In this document: positions 4,403-36,668 of the stretch, piece after piece | How positions within the stretch are numbered: the stretch's first letter is position 1 | How the letters are laid out: each line of letters begins with the position of its first letter | Virus record (IMG/VR): IMGVR_UViG_3300024268_000043 | Location: 13,665 to 77,664 of that record | DNA from: a virus | Taxonomy: Duplodnaviria; Heunggongvirae; Uroviricota; Caudoviricetes | Direction: 5' to 3' (one strand) | Length of the DNA stretch: 64,000 bases | The notes under the pieces: generated by a model | Told to the model about the DNA's origin: nothing | The model's input: only the letters and a program-made list of their open reading frames with translations | The model's database searches: none | Program-made: the position numbers and the translations under genes

Positions 4403-4435
4403 AATTAAATCTCCTTTTAATCATTTTGTATTGTT

Positions 4436-4648
4436 TTAATCTTCTACTTTGATAATTTTGTATTTGCCACAGTTACATTCGGTTTCTTCACCTCTTGCGA
4501 GAGCTTCTCTAAACACCTTGCAGCAACACTTTGTGTCCTCATTCCACTCAAGCGCACAAGGGCAATAGCCTTTTGTCTCTTGGAGTTGTCTATTTACCTC
4601 GGCAATTAACTCTCGATCGTCGCCAAGTACAATTTTATATTTAACCAT
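4436..4648 (-). CDS. small Cys-rich protein, ferredoxin-thioredoxin-reductase-catalytic-subunit-like
   Basis: CPC...CCC...CNC cysteine spacing reminiscent of FTR catalytic chain; sits next to nrdG/nrdD. Confidence 0.35.
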   Translation of the reverse strand: MVKYKIVLGDDRELIAEVNRQLQETKGYCPCALEWNEDTKCCCKVFREALARGEETECNCGKYKIIKVED

Positions 4649-16025: not shown

Positions 16026-16053
16026 ACCATCACCTCCAATCATTTTGTATGGT

Positions 16054-16926: not shown

Positions 16927-17762
16927 TTGTTAATCTCCAATTCTTTTGTTATACCAATTTTAATAGTGTTATATGTTACTTCTTCAAAAAGTTTATATAT
17001 AGTTTCATCTACGGTATTATCGCAAGTCTTCAGATAACTCTCATACATCTCCTGAATAAAGTCCATTGAGCCTTTGCCATATCGTCTCGCATCCTCAAGA
17101 TTGTATTTGCCCTTCTTGACATCAACAAGCCACTCGGGTTCAACGGAGATTAAGCAACACTCGAAAGACTCTCCATTTATCCATCTATACATAAACTCTT
17201 TGATTCTAAAGAGATGGTGCAGTTGTTTGCAATCATAGCCCCATTTTTCAATGACATGCATTCTAGAGGGATACTTATGTTCGAGAGCATGATACTTCTC
17301 ACTTGCAATTCCTTTCATTGATTTAATAAGGGAAGGCAAATTCATTTTTACGATAGAATCTCTTGCCTTAACAAGCTTATTCCATTCCTCTTCATAGATA
17401 GGGTTGATAATATAATATTTCGTATAGAGAATTTCAAGGAAGTTGAGATTAGATTTTCTGAAGGTTTCCAACATCACTCTAATATCTTTAAAGTCAATGT
17501 GTTCATCATTCTCTCTTACATAGGTAGTGCTAGCCATCTTGCTTTCTGCAAGTTCTTTAAGAGACGGTGCCAATACGCATTTGGTATCAACGTCTGAGCC
17601 TTCATAATCGAGACAATAGTTGCCAGACCCTTGGTAGTACACACCTATAATTCTATGTTCAGGATACTGTGTGAGAGCATCGTTGTAATGCTCCCACATT
17701 TTATTCATTATCCATTCATCGGTATGAAAATTCATTTTACTCTCCTCAATTTCCAATCTCAA
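16923..17762 (-). CDS. Pol-beta superfamily nucleotidyltransferase (second copy)
   Basis: GVYYQGSGNY...DYEGSDVDTKCV = GS...DxD motif. Confidence 0.5.
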   Translation of the reverse strand: MRLEIEESKMNFHTDEWIMNKMWEHYNDALTQYPEHRIIGVYYQGSGNYCLDYEGSDVDTKCVLAPSLKELAESKMASTTYVRENDEHIDFKDIRVMLETFRKSNLNFLEILYTKYYIINPIYEEEWNKLVKARDSIVKMNLPSLIKSMKGIASEKYHALEHKYPSRMHVIEKWGYDCKQLHHLFRIKEFMYRWINGESFECCLISVEPEWLVDVKKGKYNLEDARRYGKGSMDFIQEMYESYLKTCDNTVDETIYKLFEEVTYNTIKIGITKELEINK

Positions 17763-18750
17763 TAAGATACTTAATTGTCATCTGCTCTTCCTTATAAACA
17801 ACAATTTCATCGTTTCTTAGCATACCTCTGTCGGCGTGTGCGTGTAGGCAATTTGCCCCAGACTTAAACTGCTGAAGTTTGTTATAATCAAGGTTATAGT
17901 ACTTGCTATCAAAATTGTACACGTCATAAGGCGTTCCATAGGCTACATCGAAAATTGCCATATAAGCAGTGTTGTTACCGCCGTGAGCCCAATAAGAACC
18001 AGAAAGTGAGGTATAACCAATGCTCTTTGCGCACTTGGGAGCATAATATACCCCGTATCCAAACATCTTTCCGGTGATGACGGCATTAGTAGGTCTAAGC
18101 ACCAAGCCGGTCTTCATAATGGACCAGAAGTTTTCCGATCTACTACCGTGGAACAGCAACCTCGTATCCTTAATACCATTCTCCTTAACAAACTTGTCGA
18201 AACGTTCTTGCGTCTTCAGATTGGTAACTCTCCAAGCCTTTCTAAACTTATCAGCAGAATCATTCATTAATGTTTTAATGAGTGCAACATCATCTCTAGT
18301 AGTCTCTTCCATTACAAGGCCGAGTTCCTCAAGAATAGTCTGTTGCTTCTTTTCGGTCATGACTGTGGGTTCAATCTCCGGCTTCACATAAATCTGTCCA
18401 CGCATTACATCAAGAAGATCCTGCTCTTTGGTGATGATTTTCGCAAAGTCATCGGGTTTATTTGCTAAGTAATCTCGCACATCGCCCATCTTTCGAGGAA
18501 TAACTGTAAACAACCTAAGCAGATTCGCGTTGAACTCATCAGTGGTAGAGCTATTATTGGCAAGTTCATCAATGATTTTCTGTGCCGCATCAACCATATC
18601 CTGGGTAACGGCAGATGCCTTGACTGTATAGTTCTTACGAATTGTATCACGAGCGAGACTCTGTAACTTTTCAACAATCAGTCTTACGGCTTCATTCTCA
18701 ATTTCTCTATAGGGACTTTCGGGATTGGTAGAGGAAATCTCCTCCACCAA
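17746..18750 (-). CDS. PARP-like ADP-ribosyltransferase catalytic domain protein
   Basis: LLFHGSRSENFWSIMKTGL...GKMFGYGVYYA...EIVVY reproduces the PARP H-G-S / Y / E signature blocks; helical regulatory-like N-terminal region; track start is a TTG. Confidence 0.7.
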   Translation of the reverse strand: MVEEISSTNPESPYREIENEAVRLIVEKLQSLARDTIRKNYTVKASAVTQDMVDAAQKIIDELANNSSTTDEFNANLLRLFTVIPRKMGDVRDYLANKPDDFAKIITKEQDLLDVMRGQIYVKPEIEPTVMTEKKQQTILEELGLVMEETTRDDVALIKTLMNDSADKFRKAWRVTNLKTQERFDKFVKENGIKDTRLLFHGSRSENFWSIMKTGLVLRPTNAVITGKMFGYGVYYAPKCAKSIGYTSLSGSYWAHGGNNTAYMAIFDVAYGTPYDVYNFDSKYYNLDYNKLQQFKSGANCLHAHADRGMLRNDEIVVYKEEQMTIKYLIEIGN

Positions 18751-19433: not shown

Positions 19434-20810
19434 TCATTCTGTATCGTTTTCAACCGACTCTGCTTCCTCGATATCAGGAGCCTCAGCCTCCACCTTAACA
19501 ATTCCTTCAAGGGCTTTAAAGAACCAATTCTTATGCTTATAAGCACAGAACTTAGGACGATTTATGATACGAACTACCACACCCTCGCGAATATGAGTCT
19601 TGCCTATAGGGTCGGGTCCATCATAGTACTTTTCTGCTCTTGCCATAACATACTCACCAGGTTTCTTATTCTTTGCTGGAATTGTAAACTTGTCAAACAC
19701 AGGCACACACTTAACACCCATCTGTTCACAACGATAACGCATAAAGTCAGGAGTGTATTCTACTATGAAGCCATCTTCGTTGGTCATAGTCATACGATAT
19801 ACATAGATGTCAGACTGAGGAAGAGTGTCTGCGAGTTGAAGCTCACCATTTTCATTGACATAATCGGCGGGTGTTTCATCCACACAAGGCACACATCCAT
19901 AAGAGAATACCGTTGTCTCTCCATACTTCTTTACAAAGTCCTTATCGTTGAGCTTCTTGTTATCACCGCTCGCCATAATAGGAGTACCAGTATGAGTGAA
20001 ACCAACTACTTCATAGAAAATTTCCTCGCCCTTATTTAACTTGCCCTCAAAGAACTTTGAATGTGCTTCACGGAATTCGTTACTTCCGTAATATCCACCT
20101 TCAAAATTCTCAAGCACTGTACGACGAGTGCCAGATACATAGCCCCAATCATAGATGGGCTTGCCTTCCTTGCGAGTGATTTTGTCCCATAGGGTTTTCT
20201 TGTAGCTCTTGAGTACGGGAAAATCGCCGGTTCTCTGACTCGTTCCGTGCATCTTGAGTGTAATCTCAATCTCGTCGCCAGGCTTAAAAGCAGCAAGATT
20301 ATACGCAAGTTGTTCGGTATCTGCGTGCTCCGCAAACAAGGGTGCTACAGGAACTTTCTTCTTGCGAGTCTTGTTGCCCTCTGAATAATGTCCTCTTCTA
20401 TTCTGGGTACGAGGTACATACTTACAGCAAATCTCATGTCCATTGAAGTTGTCAATTCTGTCACCCTCACGAAGAGTTGTAATATCTCCGAAAGACTCAA
20501 GTGACTTAAGGGGAAGAAAGAGTCCATCTGACTTCTCTCCACGCAGTTTGATAGCAGTCACATTTCTCTTGTCTGGGTCCATATAACCACCGATGTTATT
20601 GCCGTTCTCATCCTTCTTACGAAGCAGGTTGTTGGCCTCGGCAAACTCCACAGACAACTGCCCGTCTGAGGGGAAATATACGCCGAGCTGATTATCCTCG
20701 TATTCCATTGATACGATTACGGCATTTCCGAAGCACTCTCCAATCTGAAGTCTATCAGCATTAGGGTGCTTGTGCATATTCTTAATCCTTGTAATATAAG
20801 CGTTATACAT
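19434..20810 (-). CDS. RNA ligase (Rnl2-like nucleotidyltransferase) with N-terminal tRNA-binding OB domain
   Basis: N-terminus KHPNADRLQIGE = tRNA-binding (Myf/Trbp111-type) motif; ligase motif I LKMHGTS (KxHGT), III EEIFYEVVG, IV HIREGVVVR, V YKHKNWF. Confidence 0.7.
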   Translation of the reverse strand: MYNAYITRIKNMHKHPNADRLQIGECFGNAVIVSMEYEDNQLGVYFPSDGQLSVEFAEANNLLRKKDENGNNIGGYMDPDKRNVTAIKLRGEKSDGLFLPLKSLESFGDITTLREGDRIDNFNGHEICCKYVPRTQNRRGHYSEGNKTRKKKVPVAPLFAEHADTEQLAYNLAAFKPGDEIEITLKMHGTSQRTGDFPVLKSYKKTLWDKITRKEGKPIYDWGYVSGTRRTVLENFEGGYYGSNEFREAHSKFFEGKLNKGEEIFYEVVGFTHTGTPIMASGDNKKLNDKDFVKKYGETTVFSYGCVPCVDETPADYVNENGELQLADTLPQSDIYVYRMTMTNEDGFIVEYTPDFMRYRCEQMGVKCVPVFDKFTIPAKNKKPGEYVMARAEKYYDGPDPIGKTHIREGVVVRIINRPKFCAYKHKNWFFKALEGIVKVEAEAPDIEEAESVENDTE

Positions 20811-21761: not shown

Positions 21762-22322
21762 TCATTTTGTTTTGTTATATCCATCAATAATTTCGTCAAG
21801 CGTCCGGGGCGTATAATCCATATACGGAATCATTGCTCCGCAATTATACATTTCACAGGGCTTCGTATAAAGCTCTTCGAACAGATACTTATTATGCTCC
21901 ATCATATTCCACTCAAATGAAGTATGAACATGACCATATAAGTGATACCAGCCATAGAAGTGGTTTCTGTAACAAGGTATAGGATAGTGACAAAGCACTA
22001 CTTTTCTGCCGTTATCATCAATCACCTTATACTCTTTGACATCTGCAAAATATCGGCGAGTTTTATTTGGTGCAATATCATGATTGCCTTGGATTAAAGT
22101 TTTCTGCCCATTAAGCCTTGAAAGTATTTCAAGCCATCTATCTTCTTTCTTCCAACAAAAATCACCAAGTATATAAACGTGGTCTTCATTGGTTACGGCA
22201 TTATTCCAATTTTCAATCATCTTTTCATTCATTTCGTCCACATCTTTAAAGGGACGAGCGTCAAAATGAAGACAATTAGCATGGTCAAAATGCAAATCTG
22301 CAATATAAAAATTCTTGCCCAT
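21762..22322 (-). CDS. calcineurin-like metallophosphoesterase
   Basis: DLHFDH ... GDFCW ... GNHD metal-binding motifs. Confidence 0.75.
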   Translation of the reverse strand: MGKNFYIADLHFDHANCLHFDARPFKDVDEMNEKMIENWNNAVTNEDHVYILGDFCWKKEDRWLEILSRLNGQKTLIQGNHDIAPNKTRRYFADVKEYKVIDDNGRKVVLCHYPIPCYRNHFYGWYHLYGHVHTSFEWNMMEHNKYLFEELYTKPCEMYNCGAMIPYMDYTPRTLDEIIDGYNKTK

Positions 22323-24242: not shown

Positions 24243-24333
24243 TGGCGGCGAACCAGGGACTCGAACCCTGAAGGGCTTTCACACCCACGGCAGTTTTCAG
24301 GACTGCTGTCTTACCAATTAGACTAATTCGCCG
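24243..24333 (-). tRNA. tRNA-Ser (anticodon UGA), type II with long variable arm
   Basis: Acceptor CGGCGAA/TTCGCCG perfect 7 bp, T-loop TTCGAGT, long variable arm, anticodon loop containing TGA; CCA encoded. Confidence 0.6.
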
Positions 24334-24339
24334 TATATA

Positions 24340-24590
24340 GGCAGTGTGCTACCACTACACTACCGGGCCAATGCATATACATCAACCCAGACCGGAATCG
24401 AACCGGTGTTACTGCCTGTGGTGCCCCGAGCGGGAATTGAACCCGCGACCCACAGATTATGGTGGTTGAAGCAAGCTTCGAACTTGCGTCCCTCCCCTGC
24501 CTTCTCGGCTACCAGGGAGACTCTATCCAGTTGAGTTATTCAACCAAAGTCTGTTGCTCTACCATCTGAGCTACCGGAGCATATATTAAA
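24340..24590 (-). other. cluster of tRNA-like fragments / irregular tRNA-like elements (possible pseudo-tRNAs)
   Basis: Several canonical 5' halves (acceptor + D-arm: GGCCCGGTAGTGTAGTGGTAGCAC; GCTCCGGTAGCTCAGATGGTAGAGC) and 3' halves (T-arm + acceptor + CCA) whose acceptor strands do not pair with one another; one 91-nt element (GGTTGAA...TTCAACCACCA) has a matching acceptor but a 28-nt anticodon region. Confidence 0.35.
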
Positions 24591-25649: not shown

Positions 25650-27265
25650 CATATTAAATGCAGCCTTACCCTAACTGCCACTGGTAATCGTTATCCCAAC
25701 CTTCTTTCGAAGTTGCCAGTCCCTTCAAGTGTTTGCTTTACCATCAACCGCAGATTCCATCACACTCGGCCCTTCAATCAGATGCACAATGATAAAGCGA
25801 TGATTTGCAAATCATTTTTGCCCTTGTCGGGCTAAACTTGTGGCTGGACTTACACCTCTACAAGATGCCCTTCCACTACGCATATAAACCCCTCACTTTC
25901 TTTGATGGTGGAGGAAACCACATTTTGTAGTCAATTCACAAAATGGCTTTACCGAGTTTCACGGTCTTTTTAGATGAAGCGTCCTGCAGTCGTTACCTGC
26001 CACTTGGAGTCCCTTCAACCTGTCAATAGGATATTCGTATCATTCGGATTTCCCGACTTTTTTCGAATAGTAGTATGTTATAACTACACGCCATTACTAA
26101 GCCTTTCGATGCTTCCCGAGTACAGCCCAGCGAAGACGCACTCGTTATGAATTTGAAGACCTCATCCGTATCGTGTTTGCAACCACTACACAGGAAAAAC
26201 TAATATCGTACTCATTATTTCAGAGCATTGATATTCTCAAAAGCCTTAGCCTTCTCGACTTTTATCCCACATGTGCTACCACCTTGTTTTATGACTACAA
26301 GGAAAACAATAATATGACTGGCTCACCCGCAAAAACAGTCTGGATAAAATGCTCTCTGGTGATGATTGTAGCTCCACCTAAACTCCACAGTCTTTCACTT
26401 TATCACTATGCCCTTCACTACAAATCGGCGGGTTTTTAAAACGGAAACGCCATTGCTGACGAAACCTCAACTCAACCCACACTACTACAAGCCTAATCAC
26501 TTGGCGCGAATTGAAGCCCTCAGTGAGTTTACACTTACATTGCCACGCGAGAAAGGATGGGTGAGTAATGGTAGTTTTCTTTCGGCTTTCACCTATCGTA
26601 GAATTGGCTCACTATCAACCGTTTGTGCTTCTCCCTAACCCCTTCACTCCCTACGCCGAGCAAAGGTCTTCATCGGATTCGATACCGCCTCAAGAATGCG
26701 ATAACATGGACCGGTCTACCAGTCGTGCAGATTTGCTCCCATTCACCAGAGAAGACTTCTCCCTTTTTCTGTTGTGTAACCAACGCTCCGTCCCTTACAT
26801 ACGGAATTAAAGAGGGTGAATTGTGATACTTACCTACCCGCAGGATAATGTAAGTTGTTCGTTAATCCTTGCAGTAGAAACCCCTCAACATTCATTGAGT
26901 ACCGATTTACCACATACCTACTTCTACTGGATTGGATCAACCTTTAAATCACTCGCTTGATTAGGTGCAAGCGAACACCAATTATGGCAGGTTGACAACC
27001 TCTCTGCCACGAGGTTTACTTAGTTAGGTGGAGTTTCCTCCGCAATAAAATTAATCATAATTCAATCTCCTTTCCTAAGTAGATTTGCAAGCCTACGCAC
27101 ATCCTCGCTTGCCTTCTATCCTACCGAGCCTCAGTTTACTGCAGACACCGAGGTGATCCTGTGCGTTTCCGACGGTTAAGGATAACCGCTTTGTCACCGT
27201 TTGTCTTACACGGGCAGAAATTTGTCCGAGAATACCAATATCAGTTTAAAATATGTAGTCCAGAA
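25650..27265 (-). ncRNA. about 1.6 kb ORF-free, GC-enriched region: candidate large structured non-coding RNA (GOLLD/ROOL-like, or an ORF-less intron)
   Basis: No ORF above 90 aa on either strand in an otherwise gene-dense genome; GC content visibly higher than flanking coding DNA; embedded in the tRNA/Y-RNA array, the typical neighbourhood of phage-borne giant ornate RNAs. Confidence 0.4.
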
Positions 27266-27269
27266 CCAA

Positions 27270-28095
27270 ATGTACTATGAAGTAACTGATAAAACCGCAT
27301 CGGAACAATATTATATTTTCGAGGATATTTTATAGAGTAAACAAATATGCATAATATAAGGGAGTTATATAATTCAAACTTATCATTAATTTCTATGAAG
27401 TAACTCTATAATCTGCATCGAAAATAGTTTTTTCATTTGAATTTACGAGAATAAATGTAACAGTACATTATAACGTTGCGCTACCAACTGCGCCACCTCC
27501 CGTTATAGTCGGGAGGGTAGGACTCGAACCTACGACACACGGCACCCAAAGCAAGAAGTAACTGTTACGACTGCATCGTAAATATGGTATAAGAATTATG
27601 AGAATAACTAGATTAGTAATTTTAGCGCTCTACCTGCTGAGCTACAACCCAATTGGGTAGGTTGGATTCGAACCAACGACCTCTCGGTTAACAGCCGAAG
27701 TAACTAATCTAACTGCATCATAATTAATATCTGTGTAATTTGTGAGAATATCGACAATAGTATAAAGGCACCTTTGCCTATAACAAATGGACGTTATAAA
27801 AAGAATTGAACTTTTCGAAGTAACTATCATCACTGCATCACAAATAGTTTATGCTATTAAATTTCTGAGAGTATCGAAATGAGTTTATGTAAACTAATTG
27901 GAAGTTAGTAGGTATTTTGATTAGAAGTCAAAGCCTGAAGTAACTCATTTCACTGCATCAGAAATGTAGTCCAAGGAAGAAATGCTTGAGAAAAACGACA
28001 ATGCTAAAGTACGGACTCGAACCGCTATATCAGTTTTCAAGACTAATTTTCAACCAGATGAAGTAAGCATTAATCACTGCATCAAGCATTTATAT
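27270..28095 (-). ncRNA. tandem array of about 7 Y-RNA-like (YrlA-like) tRNA-mimic modules immediately upstream of the Ro60/Rsr gene
   Basis: Seven copies of a conserved 23-nt element (minus strand GATGCAG-N7/8-AGTTACTTC) at 119-158 nt spacing. Modules at about 27440-27578 and 27580-27722 carry a canonical T-arm (GTAGGTTCGAGTCCTAC; GTTGGTTCGAATCCAAC) and D-arm (GCGCAGTTGGTAGCGC; GCTCAGCAGGTAGAGC) in which the acceptor 3' strand is joined directly to its complementary 5' strand (CCTCCCG-ACTATAA-CGGGAGG; CTACCCA-AT-TGGGTTG), while sequences flanking the module are mutually complementary. This is the topology described for bacterial Y RNAs: tRNA-like domain closed at the acceptor, long Ro-binding stem formed by the ends. 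Confidence 0.55.
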
Positions 28096-28100
28096 TAAAA

Positions 28101-29753
28101 TTAATTATTTGAATCAATTGCGTTCCACTGGTCAATCATCGCCTTAGCGAATACGGCTTCTTTACCAGTCCATCCGTACATTATGTTGGTACGATACGCA
28201 TATTCGGGTAGAACCGCGTTGTCATAACCTGCAGTCTGCACAGAGAACACATTCACTTTAGGATTAACCTTCTTACGGTACTCCTGTACGAGCTTGAACA
28301 CATTGATATAAGAGCCATCTACAAACCAACCACGTCCACAGCCATATCCACGATTCTGATATTCCGTCTTATGTCTGTCGGTGCCATAGAGACCACCGTG
28401 ACCAGCCTGCTGATCGGAATAAATAAAGATATTATCCCAGTGTTCCTTGTTGGCAATGGCGTCTCTGAAGAACTCCCAAATACCACCCTCGGTAGCACCA
28501 CCTACATCACTATATCTATTTCTGGTAATCTCCTGTGCCTGAGAGAGAACGCCCTTACGCTTACTGATAGGACTTACGATAAGCTTGTCGCCAAACTTGC
28601 CTACATATCCTTCGTCAGAACAAGCAGCAGTAATTACAGAAGAAAGATTATCAATGTCTGCCACAGTAACAGTGCCATACTCAGAATTAAGAGCACCCCA
28701 AGCCGAACCAGAATTATCTGACAAGCACATAGTCTTGCCGGAAAGCTTAGGATAATTTTCAAGTGAAATATCCATGCACTCCTCAAGAGCATCAATAATT
28801 AAAGGCTGATGATTGCATTTGCTCGTTCTAATAGCTTGAATAGCAGAGTAATAACGGAACGGAAACTGCTTGCCGTCAACTACACCACTCTTAAGCTTCT
28901 CAAGATACTTCTTGCAAAACTCACTATCCTCTATTTCGGTAAACACTCCTCTGATGTTGCGGAGAAGTGCCATATGACCCATATCAACGGTGTCGAAAAT
29001 TTCCTTCCAAGACTTGCCCTCGGAACGAAGGTTTTCCCAAGTCTTCTCGTCTTCTTTAACTTCGACGGTGCCGGTAGTCATAAGTTCATCAATAACCTTA
29101 GAGTTAGCGTGGCAGAGACGAACTCCGTTAATCATACCAATCTCGTGATTCTTATACTTAGCAACCTTATAACGAGAGAGTTTACTAAGGTTCTTTGCCC
29201 AAGAACGCTTGATAATAGAAGGGATGTTGTTCTTCTTACCCTTATTAAGATACAGATAATAAGCCATCTGAGACATAGGTTCATCTGCTCTCTTCATAAC
29301 TTGCTGATTATACTCATCAAATTTACCAGGATTATCGTCGGTCCATTCTTTACGCTTAGGATGAGTAGCAGCTCTTACCATAATAACCTGAGGGTTAAGT
29401 CTCATCATATAGTCACTACGAAGAGTCGTTGCCCACTCAAGAGTTGCACCAAAATCATAATCAAGTGCCGCGTCGATGGATTCTTCCATAATAGTTTCAG
29501 TATCTTTGCCTTCATAACACTTAGGAATAACACTAAACTCTTTAACAAGGGCATCAACAACATATGCCTTTCTCGACTTAGATCCTCTGTAATACGACGG
29601 CTCTCCAAAGATTGAAGACGCACTAATCATCTTAAGAGTATCAAGAGGATTAATCTTATAGGAATCTCCTCCCATAAAGTTAGTGACCGTTTCGTCAAGT
29701 CTAAGATTGTTTCTCTGATTCATTTCAGAGACTGCTTTAGAAATCTTGCTCAT
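28101..29753 (-). CDS. rsr: Ro60/TROVE-domain protein (Rsr-like) with C-terminal vWA domain
   Basis: 550 aa, the size of bacterial Rsr; C-terminal vWA MIDAS motif CLSDNSGSAWG (DxSGS); adjacent to the tRNA-like Y-RNA-like array, as in bacterial rsr-yrl loci. Confidence 0.55.
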   Translation of the reverse strand: MSKISKAVSEMNQRNNLRLDETVTNFMGGDSYKINPLDTLKMISASSIFGEPSYYRGSKSRKAYVVDALVKEFSVIPKCYEGKDTETIMEESIDAALDYDFGATLEWATTLRSDYMMRLNPQVIMVRAATHPKRKEWTDDNPGKFDEYNQQVMKRADEPMSQMAYYLYLNKGKKNNIPSIIKRSWAKNLSKLSRYKVAKYKNHEIGMINGVRLCHANSKVIDELMTTGTVEVKEDEKTWENLRSEGKSWKEIFDTVDMGHMALLRNIRGVFTEIEDSEFCKKYLEKLKSGVVDGKQFPFRYYSAIQAIRTSKCNHQPLIIDALEECMDISLENYPKLSGKTMCLSDNSGSAWGALNSEYGTVTVADIDNLSSVITAACSDEGYVGKFGDKLIVSPISKRKGVLSQAQEITRNRYSDVGGATEGGIWEFFRDAIANKEHWDNIFIYSDQQAGHGGLYGTDRHKTEYQNRGYGCGRGWFVDGSYINVFKLVQEYRKKVNPKVNVFSVQTAGYDNAVLPEYAYRTNIMYGWTGKEAVFAKAMIDQWNAIDSNN

Positions 29754-30283: not shown

Positions 30284-31255
30284 CTTCCCACTCTATGTCG
30301 CCATAGCCGATTTCTCGTTGTGGGCTGGACTATGTCTTAACCATATCTTGCGACTTAGGTTGACTCCGTATAGTCTCTACGCATTTTATCAATAAACAAT
30401 CTACTAATTAGGAAGGAATTGCACTTGCCATCCTTTGCAGTTTCACTCTGCCTATAGCCGACTTACCGTTATTGACGTTATAGATTGTTTATTTAATTTA
30501 GTACGGCGTTCTCAGAATCTTCGCCGTTTAGAAGCCATTCACTCAAGAGGTTTCCCTCCTGGTGCTCCTGCATAAGATGTACTATGTTGTACTTAAAAAT
30601 AAGCTCCCTTGCTCGGCGATAATTATCGCCTTTTGGAGTTAGCCCTAACCTTCTCAGAGCTTGTCTGATATTAGGACTGTTCCTCAATACCTCCGCAAAA
30701 TCATCGTCCGACACCTTAACAACCCCATTGTTGATGTTCTTGCCACGATAATTTTTTGTAAGAGCATGACAGTTTGGACATAATAATTTCAAATTTTCCA
30801 TTTCATTATTCAAAGAATCACCATCTTCGTGATGTACTTCCAATGGTATTGGTTGATTCAACCACTCTTCTTTGTTACATCGTTCGCAGCGATGTCCTCT
30901 AACATAAGACAAAGCTGCTACAGCCTGAGATGTTTTAATTACAACTCCTTGACGAAATCGTGTGTAATCAAAATTGTTTTTATTCCAGGCCTGGTTTTTA
31001 AAGTGAGACACATCTAGATCAAGCTCTTCAATCATAGATTTAAGAGTAGTCAAACAACTGCCACTCGTTGTTAAATATCCCAACTTCTCTGCCAGCGATG
31101 CAAATCCGTCACTGTCTTGTACAAACTTTTCAATCTCTTGCCGAGTAAAATTTCTCCACTTTGCTATCTTCATAATACCCTCTCCAATATAAATTGAAGA
31201 GTAATTTTTCAGGTATCTTTTGTGGAATCTTTTAGAGAAAAATCACCTTCTGATA
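30284..31255 (-). mobile_element. group I intron (about 972 nt) in the tRNA-Leu(UAA) anticodon loop, carrying an HNH homing-endonuclease ORF
   Basis: Bounded by the tRNA exons above; 5' exon terminal U / intron terminal G; a GACTA-containing segment in the about 200-nt region downstream of the ORF, consistent with a P7/G-binding core; encloses ORF 30493..31173. Confidence 0.65.
30493..31173 (-). CDS. intron-encoded HNH homing endonuclease
   Basis: HHEDGDSLNNEMENLKLLCPNCH = HNH motif with zinc-ligand Cys pairs (CERCNK...CPNCH); lies wholly inside the tRNA-Leu intron. Confidence 0.7.
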   Translation of the reverse strand: MKIAKWRNFTRQEIEKFVQDSDGFASLAEKLGYLTTSGSCLTTLKSMIEELDLDVSHFKNQAWNKNNFDYTRFRQGVVIKTSQAVAALSYVRGHRCERCNKEEWLNQPIPLEVHHEDGDSLNNEMENLKLLCPNCHALTKNYRGKNINNGVVKVSDDDFAEVLRNSPNIRQALRRLGLTPKGDNYRRARELIFKYNIVHLMQEHQEGNLLSEWLLNGEDSENAVLN

Positions 31256-33044: not shown

Positions 33045-33566
33045 TTATATAACTTCAATTTGACACATTTTCATAGCTTCAAGAGCGTTCTTGTGACTCT
33101 CGGGCGTAACACCGGCACAACAAGAACTGTCTATGATGATAGGAGTCTCGGGGAAGTGTGCCTTAAGCATCATTGCGTTACTAATAACGCAGATGTCCGT
33201 GCATAAGCCGACAAGTTCTATACTATCAATTCGGTTGCGAAAATTACTGTGGATATATGTAGGAAGCCATGTGCTACCAAATGTAGGCTTATCAACTACC
33301 GTACAACCCTGTCTATAAAGACCGGCTGCAATTTCCCAACCGTGTGTGCCATTAATGCAATGAGGTACGGGCAACTTTTTACCTTCCTGAGTTTCAAGAT
33401 AGTTATCATAATGGGTGTCTCTGGTATAAATTACCACATCAGAAGAAGAATTAGAATATTCTTCTATCTTATACTTTACATTAGGCACTATTGCCTGGGC
33501 TTCGGGAGTGCCAAGAGCATCCGAAATAAAATCATTCTGCATATCTACTACTACAAGTAACTTCAT
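33045..33566 (-). CDS. pncA: nicotinamidase / isochorismatase-family hydrolase (PncA-like)
   Basis: VVDMQNDF N-terminal motif and GLCTDICV catalytic-Cys motif of cysteine hydrolases; adjacent to pncB. Confidence 0.6.
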   Translation of the reverse strand: MKLLVVVDMQNDFISDALGTPEAQAIVPNVKYKIEEYSNSSSDVVIYTRDTHYDNYLETQEGKKLPVPHCINGTHGWEIAAGLYRQGCTVVDKPTFGSTWLPTYIHSNFRNRIDSIELVGLCTDICVISNAMMLKAHFPETPIIIDSSCCAGVTPESHKNALEAMKMCQIEVI

Positions 33567-33568
33567 AA

Positions 33569-34798
33569 TTAAATTCCTTCCTTTATTCTATAATCTACTG
33601 CGTTCTTAAGATATTCAAGATAACTGCCATCCTGACACATTGCTTTGCCAGGAGTATCGCTCAACTTTGCTACAGGATGGCCATTGACATACTGCAATTT
33701 AATGACAATATTAAGAGGATCTGCGTAAGTATCATTGCTAAGGAAAGTGCCGATACCAAAACTAACATTAATACGGTCTTTGAAATAGTCATTAATGCGC
33801 TGAGCACGGTCAAAATCAAGACCATCGCTAAACAAAAGTGTTTTTGTTTTGGGGTCAATACCAAGCTTCTCGTAATGAGCAATTATCTTGTCGCCCCACT
33901 CATAAGGGTCACCCGAGTCGTGCCTTACTCCCGTGTAGCAAAGTGCCTGAAGTTTATTGAAGTCACGAAGGAATAAGTCAGTGCCGAGAGTATCTGTAAG
34001 TGCTGTACCAAGATCACCCTGATATTCATCAAACCATTCCTCAAGAGCCATCTTATTGGTGTATGCGAGCTGAACTCCGGGAACGCCCTGGAACATTTGT
34101 ACATATTCATGAGCATAAGTACCAATAGGCTTCACTCTATACTTCATCGCAAGATACACATTAGATGTACCAACACAATGTTCATCTCTGATGAGATCGC
34201 TTACAACATAATCCTGCCACTCACGACTCAAACGACGTCTGCAACCAAATTCTGCAAACTTAAAATCATACTCCTGTGAACGGAATCCATTCATCTTTGC
34301 CACAAGTTTCTCTTTTGCACTCTCTACAAGAGAAAAGCGATCATACTTCGTGCGAAAATAAACTTCATTAACTATTTCAAGGAGATAAATCTCAAACTGC
34401 ATTACAGAGAAGAGCGGACCATCTACATAGAGAACCATACCACCAGAGGCGATATTCTCTTCGTCCTCGTAAAGATAGTAAGTATCTGCTTTGAAACAAT
34501 GTACATAGCGACGGAGGGGTCTCCAAAGACGAAGAAACTCAACATAGTCTGGCTTGATAAAGCGGAGAGACTTGAGATAATCAAGCTCTTCATCGGTAAA
34601 AGTCAACGTGCAAAGATGATCTATTTGGGCATTGATTTCGTCTATCATTTCATCGGTAAATATGACACCCTCATTTCTACACTTGAATATATACACACCA
34701 TTAAGATTAGTGTGTTTATGAAACATAACCTGATTCATTGAAAATTTGTACAAATCTGTATCTGTTAAATTCGTAATTATGGGACTAAGTTTCATCAT
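33569..34798 (-). CDS. pncB: nicotinate phosphoribosyltransferase (PncB-like type II PRTase)
   Basis: N-terminus TDLYKFSMNQVMFHKHTNLNGVYIFKCR parallels the E. coli PncB N-terminus; about 400 aa; flanked by pncA and nadE, which fits the deamido route. Confidence 0.6.
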   Translation of the reverse strand: MMKLSPIITNLTDTDLYKFSMNQVMFHKHTNLNGVYIFKCRNEGVIFTDEMIDEINAQIDHLCTLTFTDEELDYLKSLRFIKPDYVEFLRLWRPLRRYVHCFKADTYYLYEDEENIASGGMVLYVDGPLFSVMQFEIYLLEIVNEVYFRTKYDRFSLVESAKEKLVAKMNGFRSQEYDFKFAEFGCRRRLSREWQDYVVSDLIRDEHCVGTSNVYLAMKYRVKPIGTYAHEYVQMFQGVPGVQLAYTNKMALEEWFDEYQGDLGTALTDTLGTDLFLRDFNKLQALCYTGVRHDSGDPYEWGDKIIAHYEKLGIDPKTKTLLFSDGLDFDRAQRINDYFKDRINVSFGIGTFLSNDTYADPLNIVIKLQYVNGHPVAKLSDTPGKAMCQDGSYLEYLKNAVDYRIKEGI

Positions 34799-35340
34799 TT
34801 CTTTTTACCTTCTTTCAAAGTTTCTTTTAATTCCTTAAATGTTTTATCTACGCCAACCGCCACAATATGTACAAGCCAATATTCTAACTTTTCTCGTGTT
34901 TCTAAATGGAACTGATTTTCATCATAATGTGTTCCATAATAGTCCAAAGCAGACTTATCTGTAAACTTGTCGCCCAAATAAATCATTGATGCCGCAACTC
35001 TATCACAGAGCATTTCGGCAAGATATTTCGGTGGCATATCAATAGCAGTAGTTTTGCCATCTCTACCGATATCCTGCCAGTACTCGGCATGGTGCTTGTT
35101 TCTGTTATGATGATGTATCCACGCTTTGCTATAACCATACTTTTCACGTTCTCCTATATGCGGAGACTTTGTGCCCGTATAGAACTTCACTCCGTTCCAA
35201 AACTCTGTAGGTGAATATTTGGATAGATCGTGTGTTAGTCCCTGCCAATAGAGTCCACACTTGAAGCAGAGTTTACGCACCATTGCTCGATGTCGATGGA
35301 CGGTGCGAAGATGACCAAAGAATCGTTTAAATAAATTCAT
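34795..35340 (-). CDS. conserved hypothetical protein (His-rich)
   Basis: Start moved to the internal Met directly after the upstream stop; the first 58 codons of the track ORF overlap nadE out of frame. Confidence 0.4.
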   Translation of the reverse strand: MNLFKRFFGHLRTVHRHRAMVRKLCFKCGLYWQGLTHDLSKYSPTEFWNGVKFYTGTKSPHIGEREKYGYSKAWIHHHNRNKHHAEYWQDIGRDGKTTAIDMPPKYLAEMLCDRVAASMIYLGDKFTDKSALDYYGTHYDENQFHLETREKLEYWLVHIVAVGVDKTFKELKETLKEGKKK

Positions 35341-35341
35341 A

Positions 35342-36112
35342 TCATTCTCCTTTTTTAAACATAGGCATAGGACAATATTTGTGACGAGTGGCCTTGTGTA
35401 GTCGTTCAATCTTCTTGATGGTATCCCAACTAGTCTTACAATCCTTACCATTAAGAAGATAATCGTCTTCTTCTTCGTAAGTAAAGCCAAGCTTCTCTTC
35501 ATCTGATTTTCCACTCATACCATCTTCAGGTATTTTATATACCCACTCAGGCTTCAATACACCCTCATCTACATATTCCTGTCCAACAACAAGAAGCTCA
35601 CGAACCGTGAGGTCGCCAATGGGAGAAAAATCACCAGCAGCATCGCCATATTTGGTGGAATAACCAACATAATCTTCGCTGCGGTTGCAAGTATTTACTA
35701 CGCGGGAACCAGGGTAGAATGCGGCGACCGCATAAAGAGTGGTCATACGAAGGCGAGCCGGAGTATTTGTGGTAAACATATCGTTATTCCATACTGTTCC
35801 AAGTGGTTGTTCATCTTTTCTACAAATCGCATTAGCGACCTCCATTGAAAGAGCGTTGTAGGCGTTTCCTATATTGATATAGTGATGCTCAATGCCAAGT
35901 GCTTGACATATAGCAACAGAGTCCGCAAGGTCTATTTGACTTCCGTTAGGCATCATTATACCAACTACACGATCTGAACCAAGCGCTTCTACACAAAGTG
36001 CAGCAGTAATTGTACTGTCCTTGCCACCACTCATTCCTATTACGGCAACGCCATTATCATTGTCACGGAACTGGTCTCTTATAAACTCAACAATTTCACT
36101 TCTTATTGACAT
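35342..36112 (-). CDS. nadE: NH3-dependent NAD+ synthetase
   Basis: PP-loop VIGMSGGKDSTITAAL (SGGxDS). Confidence 0.85.
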   Translation of the reverse strand: MSIRSEIVEFIRDQFRDNDNGVAVIGMSGGKDSTITAALCVEALGSDRVVGIMMPNGSQIDLADSVAICQALGIEHHYINIGNAYNALSMEVANAICRKDEQPLGTVWNNDMFTTNTPARLRMTTLYAVAAFYPGSRVVNTCNRSEDYVGYSTKYGDAAGDFSPIGDLTVRELLVVGQEYVDEGVLKPEWVYKIPEDGMSGKSDEEKLGFTYEEEDDYLLNGKDCKTSWDTIKKIERLHKATRHKYCPMPMFKKGE

Positions 36113-36668
36113 CTTTTATTACCTCTTTCATAAATTCTACTTTATCTCTTATTCCATATGGAATGTACATTCTTATTACCATTTCATCGCCGGCGAGTAT
36201 ACCTTCACGAATTTCTGTTGCCGAAATAGGTATTATTGTTCTCGGAACCTTTACAACAGAAACATCAAGGTTGTCATACCAATGAGCTCGCTCCTCTTCT
36301 TCTCCCTCATAAATAACATCGGGCATTTCTCCGGTTGCCGACCACACCTTGTCGAGTAAATAATCGCCCCAAGAAGCATCATTACTAGGATGTTCTCTAT
36401 CCGGAATGGGAACAACGTGGAGGATATGATTTTTACGACTACAAAATGTCTCGACAATCCATCGACTTCTTGTGGCGAAGTCAAAGGGATTTCTCTGTGT
36501 ACCACTCTCTTGGGCCGAGCCAACTCCTACGATCACTACTTCGCATTCATCAAACATCTTGCTGATTATGCTCGTGTGTCCAATGTGCAAAGGCTGGAAG
36601 CGACCGACATATAAACCACACTTATACTTCTTCATCTTTCTGCTCCTTCTCGGATAACTCTTTTTCAA
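36096..36668 (-). CDS. nadM: nicotinamide/nicotinate mononucleotide adenylyltransferase (archaeal/NadM type)
   Basis: GRFQPLHIGH = (H/T)xGH nucleotidyltransferase motif as in NadM-type NMNATs; the start may be the internal MKKYKCGLY. Confidence 0.7.
   Translation of the reverse strand: MKKSYPRRSRKMKKYKCGLYVGRFQPLHIGHTSIISKMFDECEVVIVGVGSAQESGTQRNPFDFATRSRWIVETFCSRKNHILHVVPIPDREHPSNDASWGDYLLDKVWSATGEMPDVIYEGEEEERAHWYDNLDVSVVKVPRTIIPISATEIREGILAGDEMVIRMYIPYGIRDKVEFMKEVIKDVNKK

What the first reader, a model, noticed from the sequence alone, without database searches (positions are those of the whole stretch)
27270..29753. Phage-encoded Ro60 (Rsr) ortholog preceded by a tandem array of about seven tRNA-mimicking Y-RNA-like modules
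Directly upstream (in the transcriptional sense) of a 550-aa TROVE/vWA-type protein there are seven copies of a conserved 23-nt element (minus strand GATGCAG-N7-AGTTACTTC; plus-strand starts about 27278, 27397, 27555, 27697, 27817, 27937 and 28060). Between the copies are tRNA-like domains. In the two best-preserved units a canonical T-arm and D-arm are present, but the acceptor 3' strand is fused by a 2-7 nt loop to its perfectly complementary 5' strand (CCTCCCG/CGGGAGG; CTACCCA/TGGGTTG). The unit's flanks are complementary to each other: the variable N7 TTAGATT pairs with AATCTAG in the trailer. That is exactly the architecture reported for bacterial Y RNAs (YrlA): a tRNA-like module whose ends form the long Ro-binding stem. 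One or two Y RNAs next to rsr are known in bacteria and a few phages. A seven-fold tandem array, with degenerate copies, inside a phage tRNA island looks unusual. Together with the RNA ligase and end-healing enzymes about 8 kb away, it suggests a Ro-Y RNP used for RNA surveillance or repair during infection.
Basis: partly seen in the sequence, partly recalled or inferred. Interest (0 to 1): 0.9.

Follow-up and report, generated by a model that had tools for sequence, protein, structure and literature searches.

The report
Phage Ro60 gene with seven Y-RNAs
A large phage of anaerobic gut or rumen bacteria encodes a Ro60-type RNA-binding protein followed by seven different small structured RNAs that share one conserved "handle", which makes it the largest tandem set of Y-RNA-like partners for a Ro protein that I could find described.

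Summary
ORF 28101-29753(-) is a divergent Ro60-type protein: a TROVE ring plus a vWA domain with a DNSGS MIDAS motif. All 13 best PDB fold matches are Ro60/Rsr.

Nine bases after its stop codon lie exactly seven units on the same strand. Each unit has the plan P1 - GAUGCRG - P2 - UUACUUC - variable insert - P2' - UAUUCUC - P1'. P1 and P2 covary strongly among the seven units (94% paired; 14 of 17 pairs show double changes).

- U4 and U5 carry YrlA-type permuted tRNA mimics.
- U1 is a cloverleaf pseudo-tRNA.
- U2 carries two anticodon-stem-loop mimics.
- U3 has three conserved hairpins.
- U6 has a hairpin with a pyrimidine-rich loop.
- U7 is minimal.

These are not decayed copies. Seven close relatives keep the same units in the same order. 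Bacillus phage G has five tandem and two dispersed units. In a distant relative each unit has its own promoter and terminator.

Best reading: a panel of Y RNAs with different effector modules, all docking on the phage Ro60. This is a new variant of a known kind. Ro binding is inferred, not shown.

The parts
28101..29753 (-). Ro60-type protein gene (550 aa): N-terminal TROVE/HEAT-repeat ring, C-terminal vWA domain with MIDAS motif D346-N-S-G-S350.
   Evidence: Pfam TROVE scores 23.6 bits against a cutoff of 23. phrog_850 'RNA-binding protein' gives E 2.5e-41 over residues 5-530. PDB 9kop/9l5y (Thermus phage phiLo Ro60) gives E 2.5e-7. The AF2 model has pLDDT 68, and its 13 best Foldseek PDB hits are all Ro60/Rsr, followed by vWA domains. 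DNSGS is invariant in 41 homologs. The protein is 53.5% identical to Bacillus phage G gp540.
27982..28089 (-). Unit U1: handle plus a cloverleaf pseudo-tRNA in normal order. It has a D-like arm, an anticodon-arm mimic with loop CUUGAAA and a T arm GCGG-UUCGAGU-CCGU. P2 takes the place of the acceptor stem and there is no CCA.
   Evidence: ARAGORN calls 28003-28073 tRNA-Ser(tga), but Rfam tRNA gives only 19.2 bits against a gathering score of 29. The MFE fold gives P1-loop-P2 plus three hairpins. Its anticodon arm is 13/17 identical to that of the phage's own tRNA-Ser(UGA). Orthologs in L016, L017 and L181 are 94-97% identical.
27861..27965 (-). Unit U2: handle plus two anticodon-stem-loop mimics (uuuga-CUUCUAA-ucaaa and acuaa-CUUCCAA-uuagu).
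   Evidence: Orthologs are present in all seven close relatives, and the 'anticodon' triplets change between them: UCU/UUU in the first hairpin; UCC/UGA/UAA in the second.
27738..27845 (-). Unit U3: handle plus three hairpins. The first is T-arm-like (aaaag-UUCAAUU-cuuuu).
   Evidence: MFE fold. RNAalifold on 6 orthologs keeps all three hairpins, and hairpin 2 has 3 pairs with compensatory changes.
27594..27725 (-). Unit U4: handle plus a complete circularly permuted tRNA mimic. In order: anticodon-arm-like hairpin UUCGG-CUGUUAA-CCGAG, variable loop AGGUC, T arm, closed acceptor-like hairpin, UA, D arm. This gives a five-way junction.
   Evidence: Rfam YrlA scores 37.0 bits, E 3.4e-6, over model positions 1-114. 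Between orthologs there are compensatory P2 changes (TTAGATT/AATCTAG becomes TCGGATT/AAGCCGG in L017) and wholly different acceptor hairpins.
27441..27583 (-). Unit U5: handle plus a canonical YrlA-type tRNA-like domain. An anticodon-stem analogue is formed by the 5' and 3' strands. It is followed by a T arm, a 7-bp closed acceptor hairpin CCUCCCG-ACUAUAA-CGGGAGG, UG, and a D arm.
   Evidence: Rfam YrlA scores 36.6 bits, E 4.5e-6, over model positions 23-86. Orthologs are 81-99% identical.
27315..27425 (-). Unit U6: handle plus an A/U-rich insert with a hairpin capped by a pyrimidine-rich loop (CUCCC).
   Evidence: MFE fold. Orthologs in five relatives are 78-92% identical. The hairpin stems differ between orthologs (AUAUAA/UUAUAU versus UACAUA/UAUGUA) while the loops stay pyrimidine-rich; this was read directly from the sequences. 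RNAalifold found no consensus for the insert.
27222..27307 (-). Unit U7: the shortest unit (86 nt), with the handle (GAUGCGG variant, one bulge in P1) plus a ~34-nt insert.
   Evidence: It is the best match of covariance model R1, at 41.9 bits and E 5.7e-8. The ortholog in L016 is 93% identical.

Best explanation
**What it is.** The locus is a phage Ro60-Y RNA system with an expanded, ordered set of seven Y-RNA-like small RNAs. All seven lie on the sense strand, 9 nt downstream of the Ro60-type gene.

**The shared handle.** In every unit the 5' and 3' ends pair to form P1 (about 8 bp). An asymmetric internal loop follows, with 5' UGCRG opposite 3' (U)UAUUC. Then comes P2 (about 9 bp) and the invariant UUACUUC. 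I infer that this handle is the docking site for the phage Ro60 ring, as the terminal stem and bulge are in known Y RNAs.

**The variable insert.** The insert is the effector module, and it differs from unit to unit:
- two L-shaped tRNA mimics of the YrlA type (U4, U5);
- one pseudo-tRNA (U1);
- a pair of anticodon-arm mimics (U2);
- a three-hairpin module (U3);
- a hairpin with a pyrimidine-rich loop, like YrlB or Yrn2 (U6);
- a minimal unit (U7).

**How it probably works.** In this phage the units are probably co-transcribed with the Ro60 gene and cut apart in the 6-15 nt A/U-rich spacers. Each RNA would then tether Ro60 to a different partner, such as tRNA-binding or tRNA-modifying enzymes, exonucleases like PNPase, or RNA-repair enzymes. 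This would give the phage several specialised RNA surveillance or repair particles during infection.

**Shown versus inferred.**
- Shown: the protein fold family, the unit architecture and its covariation, the tRNA-like parts, conservation and order in relatives, and independent promoters and terminators in one distant relative.
- Inferred: Ro60 binding to the handle, processing of the precursor, and the partners and biological role.
For: **Protein.** The TROVE plus vWA/MIDAS assignment rests.

**Handle.**
- Chance expectation for the motif is 0.02 against 6 exact copies.
- The seven window units are 94% paired, with 14 of 17 pairs compensatory. Slid controls are 33-50% paired.
- In 21 units from six phage lineages, 15 of 19 pairs are compensatory.
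- A frequent U-G pair (13 of 21 units) opens P2. It would be an A-C mismatch on the other strand.
- The 881-nt array folds into seven self-contained domains.

**Link to Ro60.**
- In 88 related loci the units lie next to the TROVE gene, upstream or downstream, and only on its strand. None was found on the opposite strand in about 600 kb.
- GUUACUUC repeats persist next to TROVE genes that are only 39-44% identical.

**Separate RNAs.** In L079 each of three units has its own TTGACA/TTGACT-16-TATNAT promoter, ending a few nt before P1, and its own intrinsic terminator.

**YrlA kinship.**
- U4, U5 and the phage G unit score 36-37 bits with E about 3e-6 against RF02553.
- The T arm, closed 7-bp acceptor hairpin of unrelated sequence, UA linker and D arm recur in about 28 units.

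**Distinct, conserved units.** Arrays of 5-7 units keep the same order, and orthologs are 75-99% identical. The U3 insert shows covariation.

**Precedents.**
- Phage phiLo Ro60 binds two adjacent Yrl RNAs and PNPase (PMC12135203).
- M. smegmatis YrlA and YrlB are processed from one precursor next to rsr, and different Y RNAs are proposed to recruit different partners (PMC4201824).
Against: - No experiment or RNA-seq shows that these RNAs exist as discrete species or bind the protein.
- Both Rfam YrlA hits are far below the gathering score (37 against 69 bits), and only the tRNA-like core aligns well.
- The YrlA 5' motif GNCGAAN0-1G, and the CGAA motif shown to matter for phiLo Ro60, is not literally present. 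It is replaced by YGA(U/A)GCRG.
- No Rfam Y_RNA hit was found at E<=10.
- The protein is very divergent: 18-19% identical to phiLo Ro60 and 11-14% to animal and Deinococcus Ro60. The AF2 model is of only moderate confidence (pLDDT 68).
- No promoter-like or terminator-like site separates the units in the window, so they could stay joined.
Confidence: 0.75

Rival explanations
1. The array is one long multi-domain RNA that is not cut into units. It would act as a 'beads on a string' scaffold that loads up to seven Ro60 rings side by side and forms a higher-order particle.
For: - Spacers are only 6-15 nt, and no promoter or terminator lies between units in the window.
- The whole array folds as seven insulated domains.
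- phiLo Ro60 forms 2:2 and higher-order complexes with its Yrl RNAs (PMC12135203).
Against: - In L079 each unit is a separate gene with its own promoter and terminator.
- In phage G and other loci, units also occur singly and kilobases apart.
- Unit number varies from 1 to 7 among relatives.
- M. smegmatis Y RNAs are cut out of a common precursor (PMC4201824).
Confidence: 0.12
2. The handle is not a Ro60 site. It would be a general processing or stabilising cassette, or the site of another protein, used to express assorted small RNAs. Its position next to the TROVE gene would reflect only shared regulation.
For: - The handle lacks the literal CGAA motif.
- The inserts are heterogeneous.
- Some copies lie 3-5 kb from the TROVE gene.
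Against: - Co-occurrence with one TROVE clade is tight and strand-specific across 88 loci.
- The motif drifts in step with protein divergence: GAUGCAG, then GAAGCGG, then GUAGCGG or CAGUAGUG.
- The stem / internal loop / stem design formed by the RNA ends is the Y RNA design. Two unit types are YrlA-like.
Confidence: 0.07
3. The tRNA-like units are permuted tRNA genes. They would mature, by cutting at the handle, ligation by the phage RNA ligase and opening of the acceptor loop by RNase P/Z, into ordinary decoding tRNAs.
For: - U4-type units contain every tRNA part, including an anticodon arm and an AGGUC variable loop.
- The phage G unit encodes ACCA after the acceptor 3' strand.
- M. smegmatis YrlA is cut by RNase P and receives CCA (PMC4201824).
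- An RNA ligase gene lies nearby.
Against: - The same handle flanks inserts with no tRNA features.
- U5-type units have no anticodon loop at all.
- The window units lack CCA, while all eight genuine tRNAs of the island encode it.
- There is no bulge-helix-bulge motif.
- The 'anticodon' triplet changes between close orthologs, which a decoding tRNA would not tolerate.
Confidence: 0.04
4. The repeats act at the DNA level, for example as iterons, protein-binding sites or miniature transposable elements with terminal inverted repeats.
For: They are tandem repeats with inverted flanks in a gene-free stretch.
Against: - The inverted flanks differ in every copy but stay complementary, including G-U pairs that would be A-C on the other strand.
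- Orientation is strictly that of the gene.
- The inserts contain T arms, D arms and anticodon-arm mimics.
Confidence: 0.01

Closest known systems
YrlA / YrlB of Salmonella Typhimurium and Mycobacterium smegmatis (Rfam RF02553; Chen et al. 2014, PMC4201824; Wang et al. 2018, bioRxiv 10.1101/312249)
   Same: - The RNAs are encoded beside rsr on the same strand.
- The 5' and 3' ends form a stem / internal loop / stem module.
- The effector module of YrlA is a permuted tRNA: T arm, closed acceptor stem-loop, UA linker and D arm. U5 matches this exactly.
[quoted passage not shown]
- Several Y RNAs can come from one precursor.
   Different: - There are seven units here instead of two.
- The scores are below the Rfam gathering threshold.
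- The 5' motif is YGA(U/A)GCRG, not GNCGAAN0-1G.
- The handle has additional invariant UUACUUC and UAUUCUC motifs.
- The U4 type adds an anticodon-arm-like hairpin, giving a five-way junction.
- Other units display isolated anticodon-arm mimics.
Thermus phage phiLo Ro60 with Yrl1 and Yrl2 (PMC12135203; PDB 9KOP, 9L5Y)
   Same: - It is a phage-encoded Ro60 homolog and the best sequence and structure match to the window protein.
- Its Y-like RNAs lie next to the gene.
- It forms a RYPER-like complex with host PNPase in vitro.
   Different: - It has two RNAs, found through CGAA motifs, upstream of the gene, and no tRNA-like domain is reported.
- Protein identity is only 18-19%.
- Its host and phage type are unrelated.
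Bacillus phage G gp540 locus (NC_023719, 'putative TROVE domain ribonucleoprotein')
   Same: - It is the closest cultured relative (53.5% aa identity).
- It carries the same handle (GAAGCGG ... AGUUACUUC ... AUCUC).
- Five units lie in tandem in the 1-kb gap upstream of the gene, and two more lie within 5 kb. One of those is a YrlA-like unit (36.2 bits).
- It also sits in a tRNA island.
   Different: - The array is upstream of the gene, not downstream.
- The tandem units have no tRNA-like domain.
- According to PMC12135203, a Y-like RNA in phage G was already listed by Chen et al. 2014. I could not see which one, and I found no description of the array.
Deinococcus radiodurans Rsr-Yrn1-PNPase (RYPER) and animal Ro60-Y RNA particles
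   Same: The logic is modular: one part of the RNA binds Ro60 and the other tethers an effector. A species can have several Y RNAs with different loops (four in humans, by general knowledge).
   Different: - There is no detectable sequence or covariance-model similarity (no Rfam Y_RNA hit at E<=10).
- The genes in those systems are not in a tight tandem array behind the protein gene.

Membership tests
Ro60 / Rsr (TROVE + vWA) protein family | N-terminal TROVE (HEAT-repeat ring) domain | tested here: met
   Pfam PF05731 scores 23.6 bits against a cutoff of 23, which is marginal. phrog_850 gives E 2.5e-41 over nearly the full length. The 13 best Foldseek PDB hits are all Ro60/Rsr with probability 1.0. 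The model has pLDDT 68.
Ro60 / Rsr (TROVE + vWA) protein family | C-terminal von Willebrand factor A domain with a MIDAS DxSxS motif | tested here: met
   D346-N-S-G-S350 is invariant in 41 homologs. The predicted region 337-506 has alternating strands and helices. vWA domains are the next Foldseek hits after Ro60.
Ro60 / Rsr (TROVE + vWA) protein family | Binds Y RNA on the outer surface and misfolded RNA ends in the central hole | not testable with these tools
   This needs EMSA, CLIP or a solved structure.
YrlA (Rfam RF02553) | Encoded within about 4 kb of the Ro60 ortholog on the same strand | tested here: met
   The units start 9 nt after the stop codon, all on the minus strand. The same holds in 88 related loci.
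YrlA (Rfam RF02553) | Effector module is a permuted tRNA: T stem-loop, closed acceptor stem-loop, UA linker, D stem-loop, with the anticodon stem made by the two strands that lead to the Ro-binding module | tested here: met
   Met for U5. Met with an extra hairpin for U4. Not met for U1, U2, U3, U6 and U7.
YrlA (Rfam RF02553) | Reaches the family's curated gathering score | tested here: not met
   The scores are 37.0 and 36.6 bits against 69. There was no YrlA hit at gathering threshold over the whole window.
YrlA (Rfam RF02553) | GNCGAAN0-1G motif near the 5' end (presumed Rsr contact) | tested here: inconclusive
   The equivalent place holds YGA(U/A)GCRG. A few relatives have CGAAGCAG. The resemblance to the Rfam consensus CgaAUGC is by eye only. 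The Rfam alignment of U4 placed that segment elsewhere, with many mismatches.
Y RNA in the broad sense (Ro60-bound modular ncRNA) | 5' and 3' ends pair into a stem with a conserved internal loop or bulge, and a variable second module lies distal to it | tested here: met
   Covariation supports P1 and P2. MFE folds recover them. The inserts differ between units.
Y RNA in the broad sense (Ro60-bound modular ncRNA) | Physically bound and stabilised by Ro60 | not testable with these tools
   This is inferred from genomic linkage only.
tRNA (RF00005) | Cloverleaf in normal order reaching the gathering score, with a 7-bp acceptor stem and a CCA end | tested here: not met
   U1 scores 19.2 bits against 29. 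Only about 4 of 7 acceptor pairs form if it is read as a tRNA, and it has no CCA. All 8 genuine tRNAs in the window encode CCA.
Permuted tRNA genes that mature into functional tRNAs (as in red algae, from general knowledge) | Termini form a bulge-helix-bulge motif that is cut and ligated into a circular intermediate, producing a decoding tRNA | tested here: not met
   The handle has 5-nt and 6-nt loops between 8-9 bp helices, not a 3-4-3 BHB. The same handle flanks non-tRNA inserts. U5 has no anticodon loop.

The most novel reading that the evidence does not exclude
The array may be a phage-encoded display library of tRNA parts anchored on Ro60. It would include whole L-shapes, a complete permuted tRNA and isolated anticodon stem-loops.

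**Evidence for the stem-loops.** They keep the C32-U33 ... A37-A38 loop frame: 20 strict cases in 91 inserts, against 0.15 expected. That is roughly 40-fold above the background on the opposite strand.

**The variable triplet.** The 'anticodon' triplet changes between close relatives: UCU/UUU, UGA/GGA/GCA, UCC/UGA/UAA, GUU/GAU. It varies in 6 of 9 triplet columns against 99 of 427 other columns, p about 0.008 on small numbers.

**Possible role.** Such RNAs could act in either of two ways:
- as decoys or sensors for host tRNA-cleaving defence nucleases;
- as guides that bring Ro60 and the neighbouring RNA ligase, kinase and phosphoesterase genes' products to broken tRNAs.

Either way, Y RNAs would be tied directly to the phage-host conflict over tRNA.
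Probability: 0.2. Interest if true: 0.85.

Novelty: new variant of a known kind. Interest (0 to 1): 0.66.

Why it matters
Ro60 and Y RNAs are conserved from bacteria to humans. Ro60 is a major lupus and Sjogren autoantigen. Yet the partner of the tRNA-like YrlA module, and the reason a cell needs several Y RNAs, remain unknown.

This phage clade offers a natural comparative panel:
- One protein is paired with five to seven Y-like RNAs.
- All the RNAs share a sharply defined handle (GAWGCRG / UUACUUC / UAUUCUC).
- Each RNA carries a different, individually conserved effector module.

The handle gives a testable definition of a new Ro-binding consensus that current Rfam models miss. The modules give direct hypotheses about partners, such as proteins that bind the tRNA elbow, proteins that bind the anticodon loop, and PNPase.

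A cultured member, Bacillus phage G on B. megaterium, makes the system experimentally accessible. The link to a tRNA island and to RNA ligase and end-healing genes puts the proposed repair-platform role of Ro-Y particles within reach of a genetic test.

Tried and rejected
**Searches and models that gave nothing useful**
- Rfam at gathering thresholds over the whole window returned only 8 tRNAs and no YrlA.
- Covariance model R1, built from handles with the inserts trimmed out, found only the 5' halves of most units and spanned only the short U7. It was not used for counting. Counts come instead from a motif-plus-pairing script, which undercounts: at its strictest setting it finds 5 of the 7 window units.
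- Megablast of the locus, and sensitive blastn of the 1.6-kb downstream region, found nothing in 50,697 phage records.
- An exact-pattern scan of IMG/VR gave mostly single hits, about the number expected by chance for 16 fixed bases. Only the known clade had multiple hits.
- The Annual Review on bacterial Ro60 and the supplement of Chen et al. 2014 are not held. I therefore could not check which phage G RNA was already listed.

**Ideas considered and dropped**
- Hammerhead-like ribozyme (CUGAUG...): the C and U are not conserved, there is no GAAA, and there is no Rfam hit.
- MITE or iteron: rejected because the flanks covary, including G-U pairs.
- The GC-rich 27075-27222 stretch as a structured RNA: folding z-score is +0.18.

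**A lead, not a result**
- From memory, the handle's 5' strand (YGAUGCAGUG ... GUUACUUC) resembles vertebrate Y RNA 5' strands (CCGAUGGUAGUG ... GUUAUC). No Rfam Y_RNA hit supports this.


Full report
**1. The observation**

On the minus strand, ORF 28101-29753 (550 aa) is followed after 9 nt by a gene-free stretch. The element GATGCRG-N7-AGTTACTTC occurs six times exactly, at 27279, 27397, 27555, 27697, 27817 and 27937. Chance would give 0.02 matches. A seventh copy at 28060-28083 has one extra spacer base and GC in place of AG.

Each copy is matched 60-120 nt downstream by a second conserved element, (U)UAUUCUC. Taking both elements as anchors gives exactly seven units:

| Unit | Coordinates |
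|---|---|
| U1 | 28089-27982 |
| U2 | 27965-27861 |
| U3 | 27845-27738 |
| U4 | 27725-27594 |
| U5 | 27583-27441 |
| U6 | 27425-27315 |
| U7 | 27307-27222 |

The units are separated by 6-15 nt.

**2. Anatomy of a unit**

Every unit reads P1 (about 8 bp, ending GA/UC) - UGCRG - P2 (about 9 bp, ending AG/CU) - UUACUUC - insert - P2' - (U)UAUUC - P1'. The sequences of P1 and P2 differ in every unit but remain complementary.

- On the seven units defined by motif alone, 94.1% of cells pair and 14 of 17 pairs show changes on both sides. The covariation score is 0.737, against 0.226 +/- 0.05 in shuffles and 0.04-0.18 when the partner is slid by 1-3 columns.
- Adding 14 units from five other phage lineages gives 15 of 19 compensatory pairs. 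Those extra units were chosen with a pairing score, so their percentage paired is inflated.
- A U-G pair, present in 13 of 21 units, opens P2. It would be A-C on the other strand, so the functional strand is the sense strand of the ORF, as RNA.
- Thermodynamic folding recovers P1-loop-P2 for each unit.
- Folding the whole 881-nt array gives seven insulated domains.

**3. The protein**

- Pfam TROVE just passes its cutoff (23.6 against 23 bits).
- PHROG 850 'RNA-binding protein' matches nearly the full length (E 2.5e-41).
- The only solved relatives by sequence are 9KOP and 9L5Y, the Ro60 of Thermus phage phiLo.
- An AlphaFold model of moderate confidence (pLDDT 68) finds Ro60/Rsr structures as its 13 best PDB matches. 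These are phiLo, human, Xenopus and Deinococcus, all with probability 1.0. Isolated vWA domains follow.
- The MIDAS signature DNSGS (residues 346-350) is invariant in 41 homologs.

The protein is therefore a Ro60-type TROVE+vWA protein. It is very divergent, at 11-19% identity to solved members, so strict orthology is not proven.

**4. The inserts**

- **U5** is a textbook YrlA-type module. An anticodon-stem analogue is made by the two strands. Then come the variable loop GUGUC, the T arm guagg-UUCGAGU-ccuac, the closed 7-bp acceptor hairpin CCUCCCG-ACUAUAA-CGGGAGG, and the D arm gcgc-AGUUGGUA-gcgc.
- **U4** has the same T arm, acceptor hairpin, UA linker and D arm. It is preceded by a 5-bp, 7-nt-loop hairpin UUCGG-CUGUUAA-CCGAG and by AGGUC, which correspond to a complete anticodon arm and a class-I variable loop. 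The break of the permuted tRNA thus lies at position 26/27 and the junction is five-way.
- Rfam YrlA matches both units with E about 3e-6, but at 37 bits against a gathering score of 69.
- **U1** is a cloverleaf in normal order with a good T arm and an anticodon-arm mimic. ARAGORN calls it tRNA-Ser(tga), but it scores 19 bits against a gathering score of 29, has a poor acceptor stem and lacks CCA. All eight genuine tRNAs nearby encode CCA. Its anticodon arm is 13/17 identical to that of the phage's tRNA-Ser(UGA), which suggests descent from a tRNA gene.
- **U2** carries two anticodon-stem-loop mimics, with loops CUUCUAA and CUUCCAA.
- **U3** has three hairpins, the first T-arm-like.
- **U6** has a hairpin with a pyrimidine-rich loop. 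This is the feature Chen et al. noted for YrlB and Yrn2 (PMC4201824).
- **U7** is minimal.

**5. Relatives**

The protein family is abundant, with more than 3,900 hits. The top 120 are 76-94% identical and come from rumen and gut metagenomes.

- *Close relatives.* Seven relatives at 82-94% aa identity carry arrays of 5-7 units in the same order. Orthologous units are 75-99% identical and paralogous units only 45-70%. The units are therefore old, distinct genes, not fresh or decaying duplicates.
- *Compensatory changes between orthologs.* They occur in P2 of U4, in the acceptor hairpins and in hairpin 2 of U3.
- *Strand and position.* Across 88 loci the units occur only on the strand of the TROVE gene, upstream or downstream of it, in numbers from 1 to 7. 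A strict detector found none on the opposite strand in about 600 kb.
- *Unit types.* I collected 97 unique units. By arm-by-arm dissection, about 28 are YrlA-like and the rest are not tRNA-like.
- *Closest cultured relative.* This is Bacillus phage G gp540 (53.5% identity). Its 1-kb upstream gap holds five tandem units with the variant handle GAAGCGG ... AGUUACUUC ... AUCUC. Two more lie within 5 kb. One of those is YrlA-like (36.2 bits) and has ACCA encoded after the acceptor 3' strand.
- *Distant relatives.* GUUACUUC repeats persist beside TROVE genes only 39-44% identical. In one of them, L079, each of three units has its own near-consensus promoter ending a few bases before P1 and its own intrinsic terminator. 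The scan found 8 promoter-like sites against 3.3 expected and 4 terminator-like sites against 0.3 expected. The fold is the same. This is the best available evidence that a unit is one small RNA.

**6. Context**

The window is the replication and nucleotide-metabolism region of a large phage. It encodes a Pol III alpha-type polymerase, DnaB-like helicase, primase, RecJ-like nuclease, anaerobic ribonucleotide reductase and an endolysin. MAG-associated relatives point to Clostridia, Ruminococcus and Bacillus hosts.

The array sits inside a tRNA island of eight tRNAs between 24.1 and 31.4 kb. Seven to fourteen kb downstream lie these genes:
- an RNA ligase (19434-20810, phrog_968, E 1e-65);
- a phosphoesterase (21762-22322);
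- a kinase+HD protein (16054-16926, polynucleotide-kinase-like);
- two RlaP-type nucleotidyltransferases;
- a PARP-like protein.

An NAD salvage cluster lies upstream. The association of TROVE proteins with RNA-repair genes in jumbo phages has been noted before (PMC7824862).

**7. Mechanism**

The best-supported model, with confidence about 0.75, is a Ro60-Y RNA system in which the shared handle docks on the phage Ro60 and the inserts recruit different partners.

- *Shown:* the fold family of the protein, the covarying handle, the tRNA-like parts, the ordered conservation, the strand-specific linkage to the gene, and separate transcription units in L079.
- *Inferred:* binding, processing of the polycistronic precursor in this phage (no internal promoter or terminator), the partners, and the role in RNA surveillance or repair.

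The rivals are a non-processed poly-Ro scaffold (0.12), a handle that serves another factor (0.07), maturation into real tRNAs (0.04) and DNA-level repeats (0.01).

**8. An additional pattern**

Hairpins with a 5-bp stem and a 7-nt loop of the form CU-NNN-AA, the frame of a tRNA anticodon loop, are strongly enriched in the inserts.

- There are 20 in 91 inserts, against 0.15 in shuffles (maximum 3) and none in reversed sequences.
- The density is about 3 per kb, against 0.07 per kb on the opposite strand of the same loci.
- They occur both in U4-type units and in units with no other tRNA feature.
- Among close orthologs the three 'anticodon' positions vary more than other positions: 6 of 9 columns against 99 of 427, Fisher p 0.008.

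The numbers for the last point are small and the sequences are related, so it is a lead only. It could mean mere lack of constraint on the triplet, or diversification. The latter would fit decoys or sensors for anticodon nucleases.

**9. Comparison and novelty**

Known systems have one to a few Y RNAs per Ro60 locus:
- Salmonella, M. smegmatis and D. radiodurans have two or more each (PMC4201824).
- Thermus phage phiLo has two (PMC12135203).
- Listeria phage CKA15 has up to three candidates (PMC12282133).
- Chen et al. found YrlA-like RNAs in 22 phages, reportedly including phage G.

In the searchable literature I found no description of the following:
- a tandem array of five to seven distinct units;
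- this handle consensus;
- anticodon-arm-displaying units.

No Rfam family other than YrlA touches the region. I therefore rate this a new variant of a known kind. It is of clear interest to the Ro/Y RNA and phage RNA-biology fields, and it has a cultured model in Bacillus phage G.

Noticed in passing
window 25650-27220 (minus strand): About 1.6 kb lies between the array and the next tRNA cluster without any ORF over 90 aa. There are weak Rfam hits to RAGATH-33 (26036-26149, 45.5 bits against a gathering score of 120, E 1.4e-7) and to drum RNA (26567-26678, 28.7 against 43 bits, E 0.006). Only three short pieces are shared with the 94%-identical relative L016, so the region looks like a mosaic of inserted non-coding pieces. 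There was no match in the phage records. The 27075-27222 part shows no unusual folding (z = +0.18).
   Followed up: partly
L021 (Bacillus phage G, NC_023719) 2779-2936, and 4256-4935: The YrlA-like unit of phage G has the acceptor 3' strand UCCCGCG followed by ACCA and a 25-nt loop before CGCGGGA. That is an encoded discriminator plus CCA inside the closed acceptor hairpin. It is a candidate for RNase P cleavage and 3' trimming, as shown for M. smegmatis YrlA. Five further units without a tRNA-like domain fill the unannotated gap upstream of gp540.
   Followed up: partly
window 24419-24580 (minus strand): ARAGORN and Rfam disagree on one tRNA. ARAGORN gives a 100-nt tRNA-Ser(cga) at 24419-24518. 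Infernal places a full-length tRNA match over 24422-24580 (159 nt). This could mean an interrupted or otherwise unusual tRNA gene.
   Followed up: no
window 30493-31173 and 14874-16043 (minus strand): An HNH endonuclease gene sits between tRNA-Gly and tRNA-Leu just upstream of the Ro60-type gene. A LAGLIDADG-like ORF sits among the RNA-repair genes. Both are probably homing endonucleases, and they may explain the mosaic differences between close relatives.
   Followed up: no
window 33045-36668, 17746-18750, 11434-13395 (minus strand): The window holds an NAD+ salvage and synthesis cluster: isochorismatase/nicotinamidase-like, NAPRTase, NAD synthase and a cytidylyltransferase-like (NMNAT-like) gene. 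It also holds a PARP-catalytic-domain protein and an NAD-dependent DNA ligase. This gene set would fit counter-defence against NAD-depleting host systems.
   Followed up: no
window 214-2160, 53781-54722, 54795-55781 (minus strand): One window of a large phage holds three recombinase or integrase-like genes: one large serine recombinase and two tyrosine-integrase-like genes.
   Followed up: no
window 28003-28073 versus 24243-24332: The anticodon arm of pseudo-tRNA unit U1 (uuagu-CUUGAAA-acuga) is 13/17 identical to that of the phage's own tRNA-Ser(UGA) (gcagu-CCUGAAA-acugc). This hints that the unit arose from a tRNA gene of the island.
   Followed up: partly
L079 3443-3876: In a TROVE relative only 39% identical, the handle's 5' loop reads CAG-UAGUG instead of YGA-UGCRG, while GUUACUUC and UUCUC are kept. 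The RNA motif therefore seems to drift along with the protein. From memory, GUAGUG ... GUUAYC also recalls the 5' strand of vertebrate Y RNAs; this was not tested, and no Rfam Y_RNA hit supports it.
   Followed up: partly
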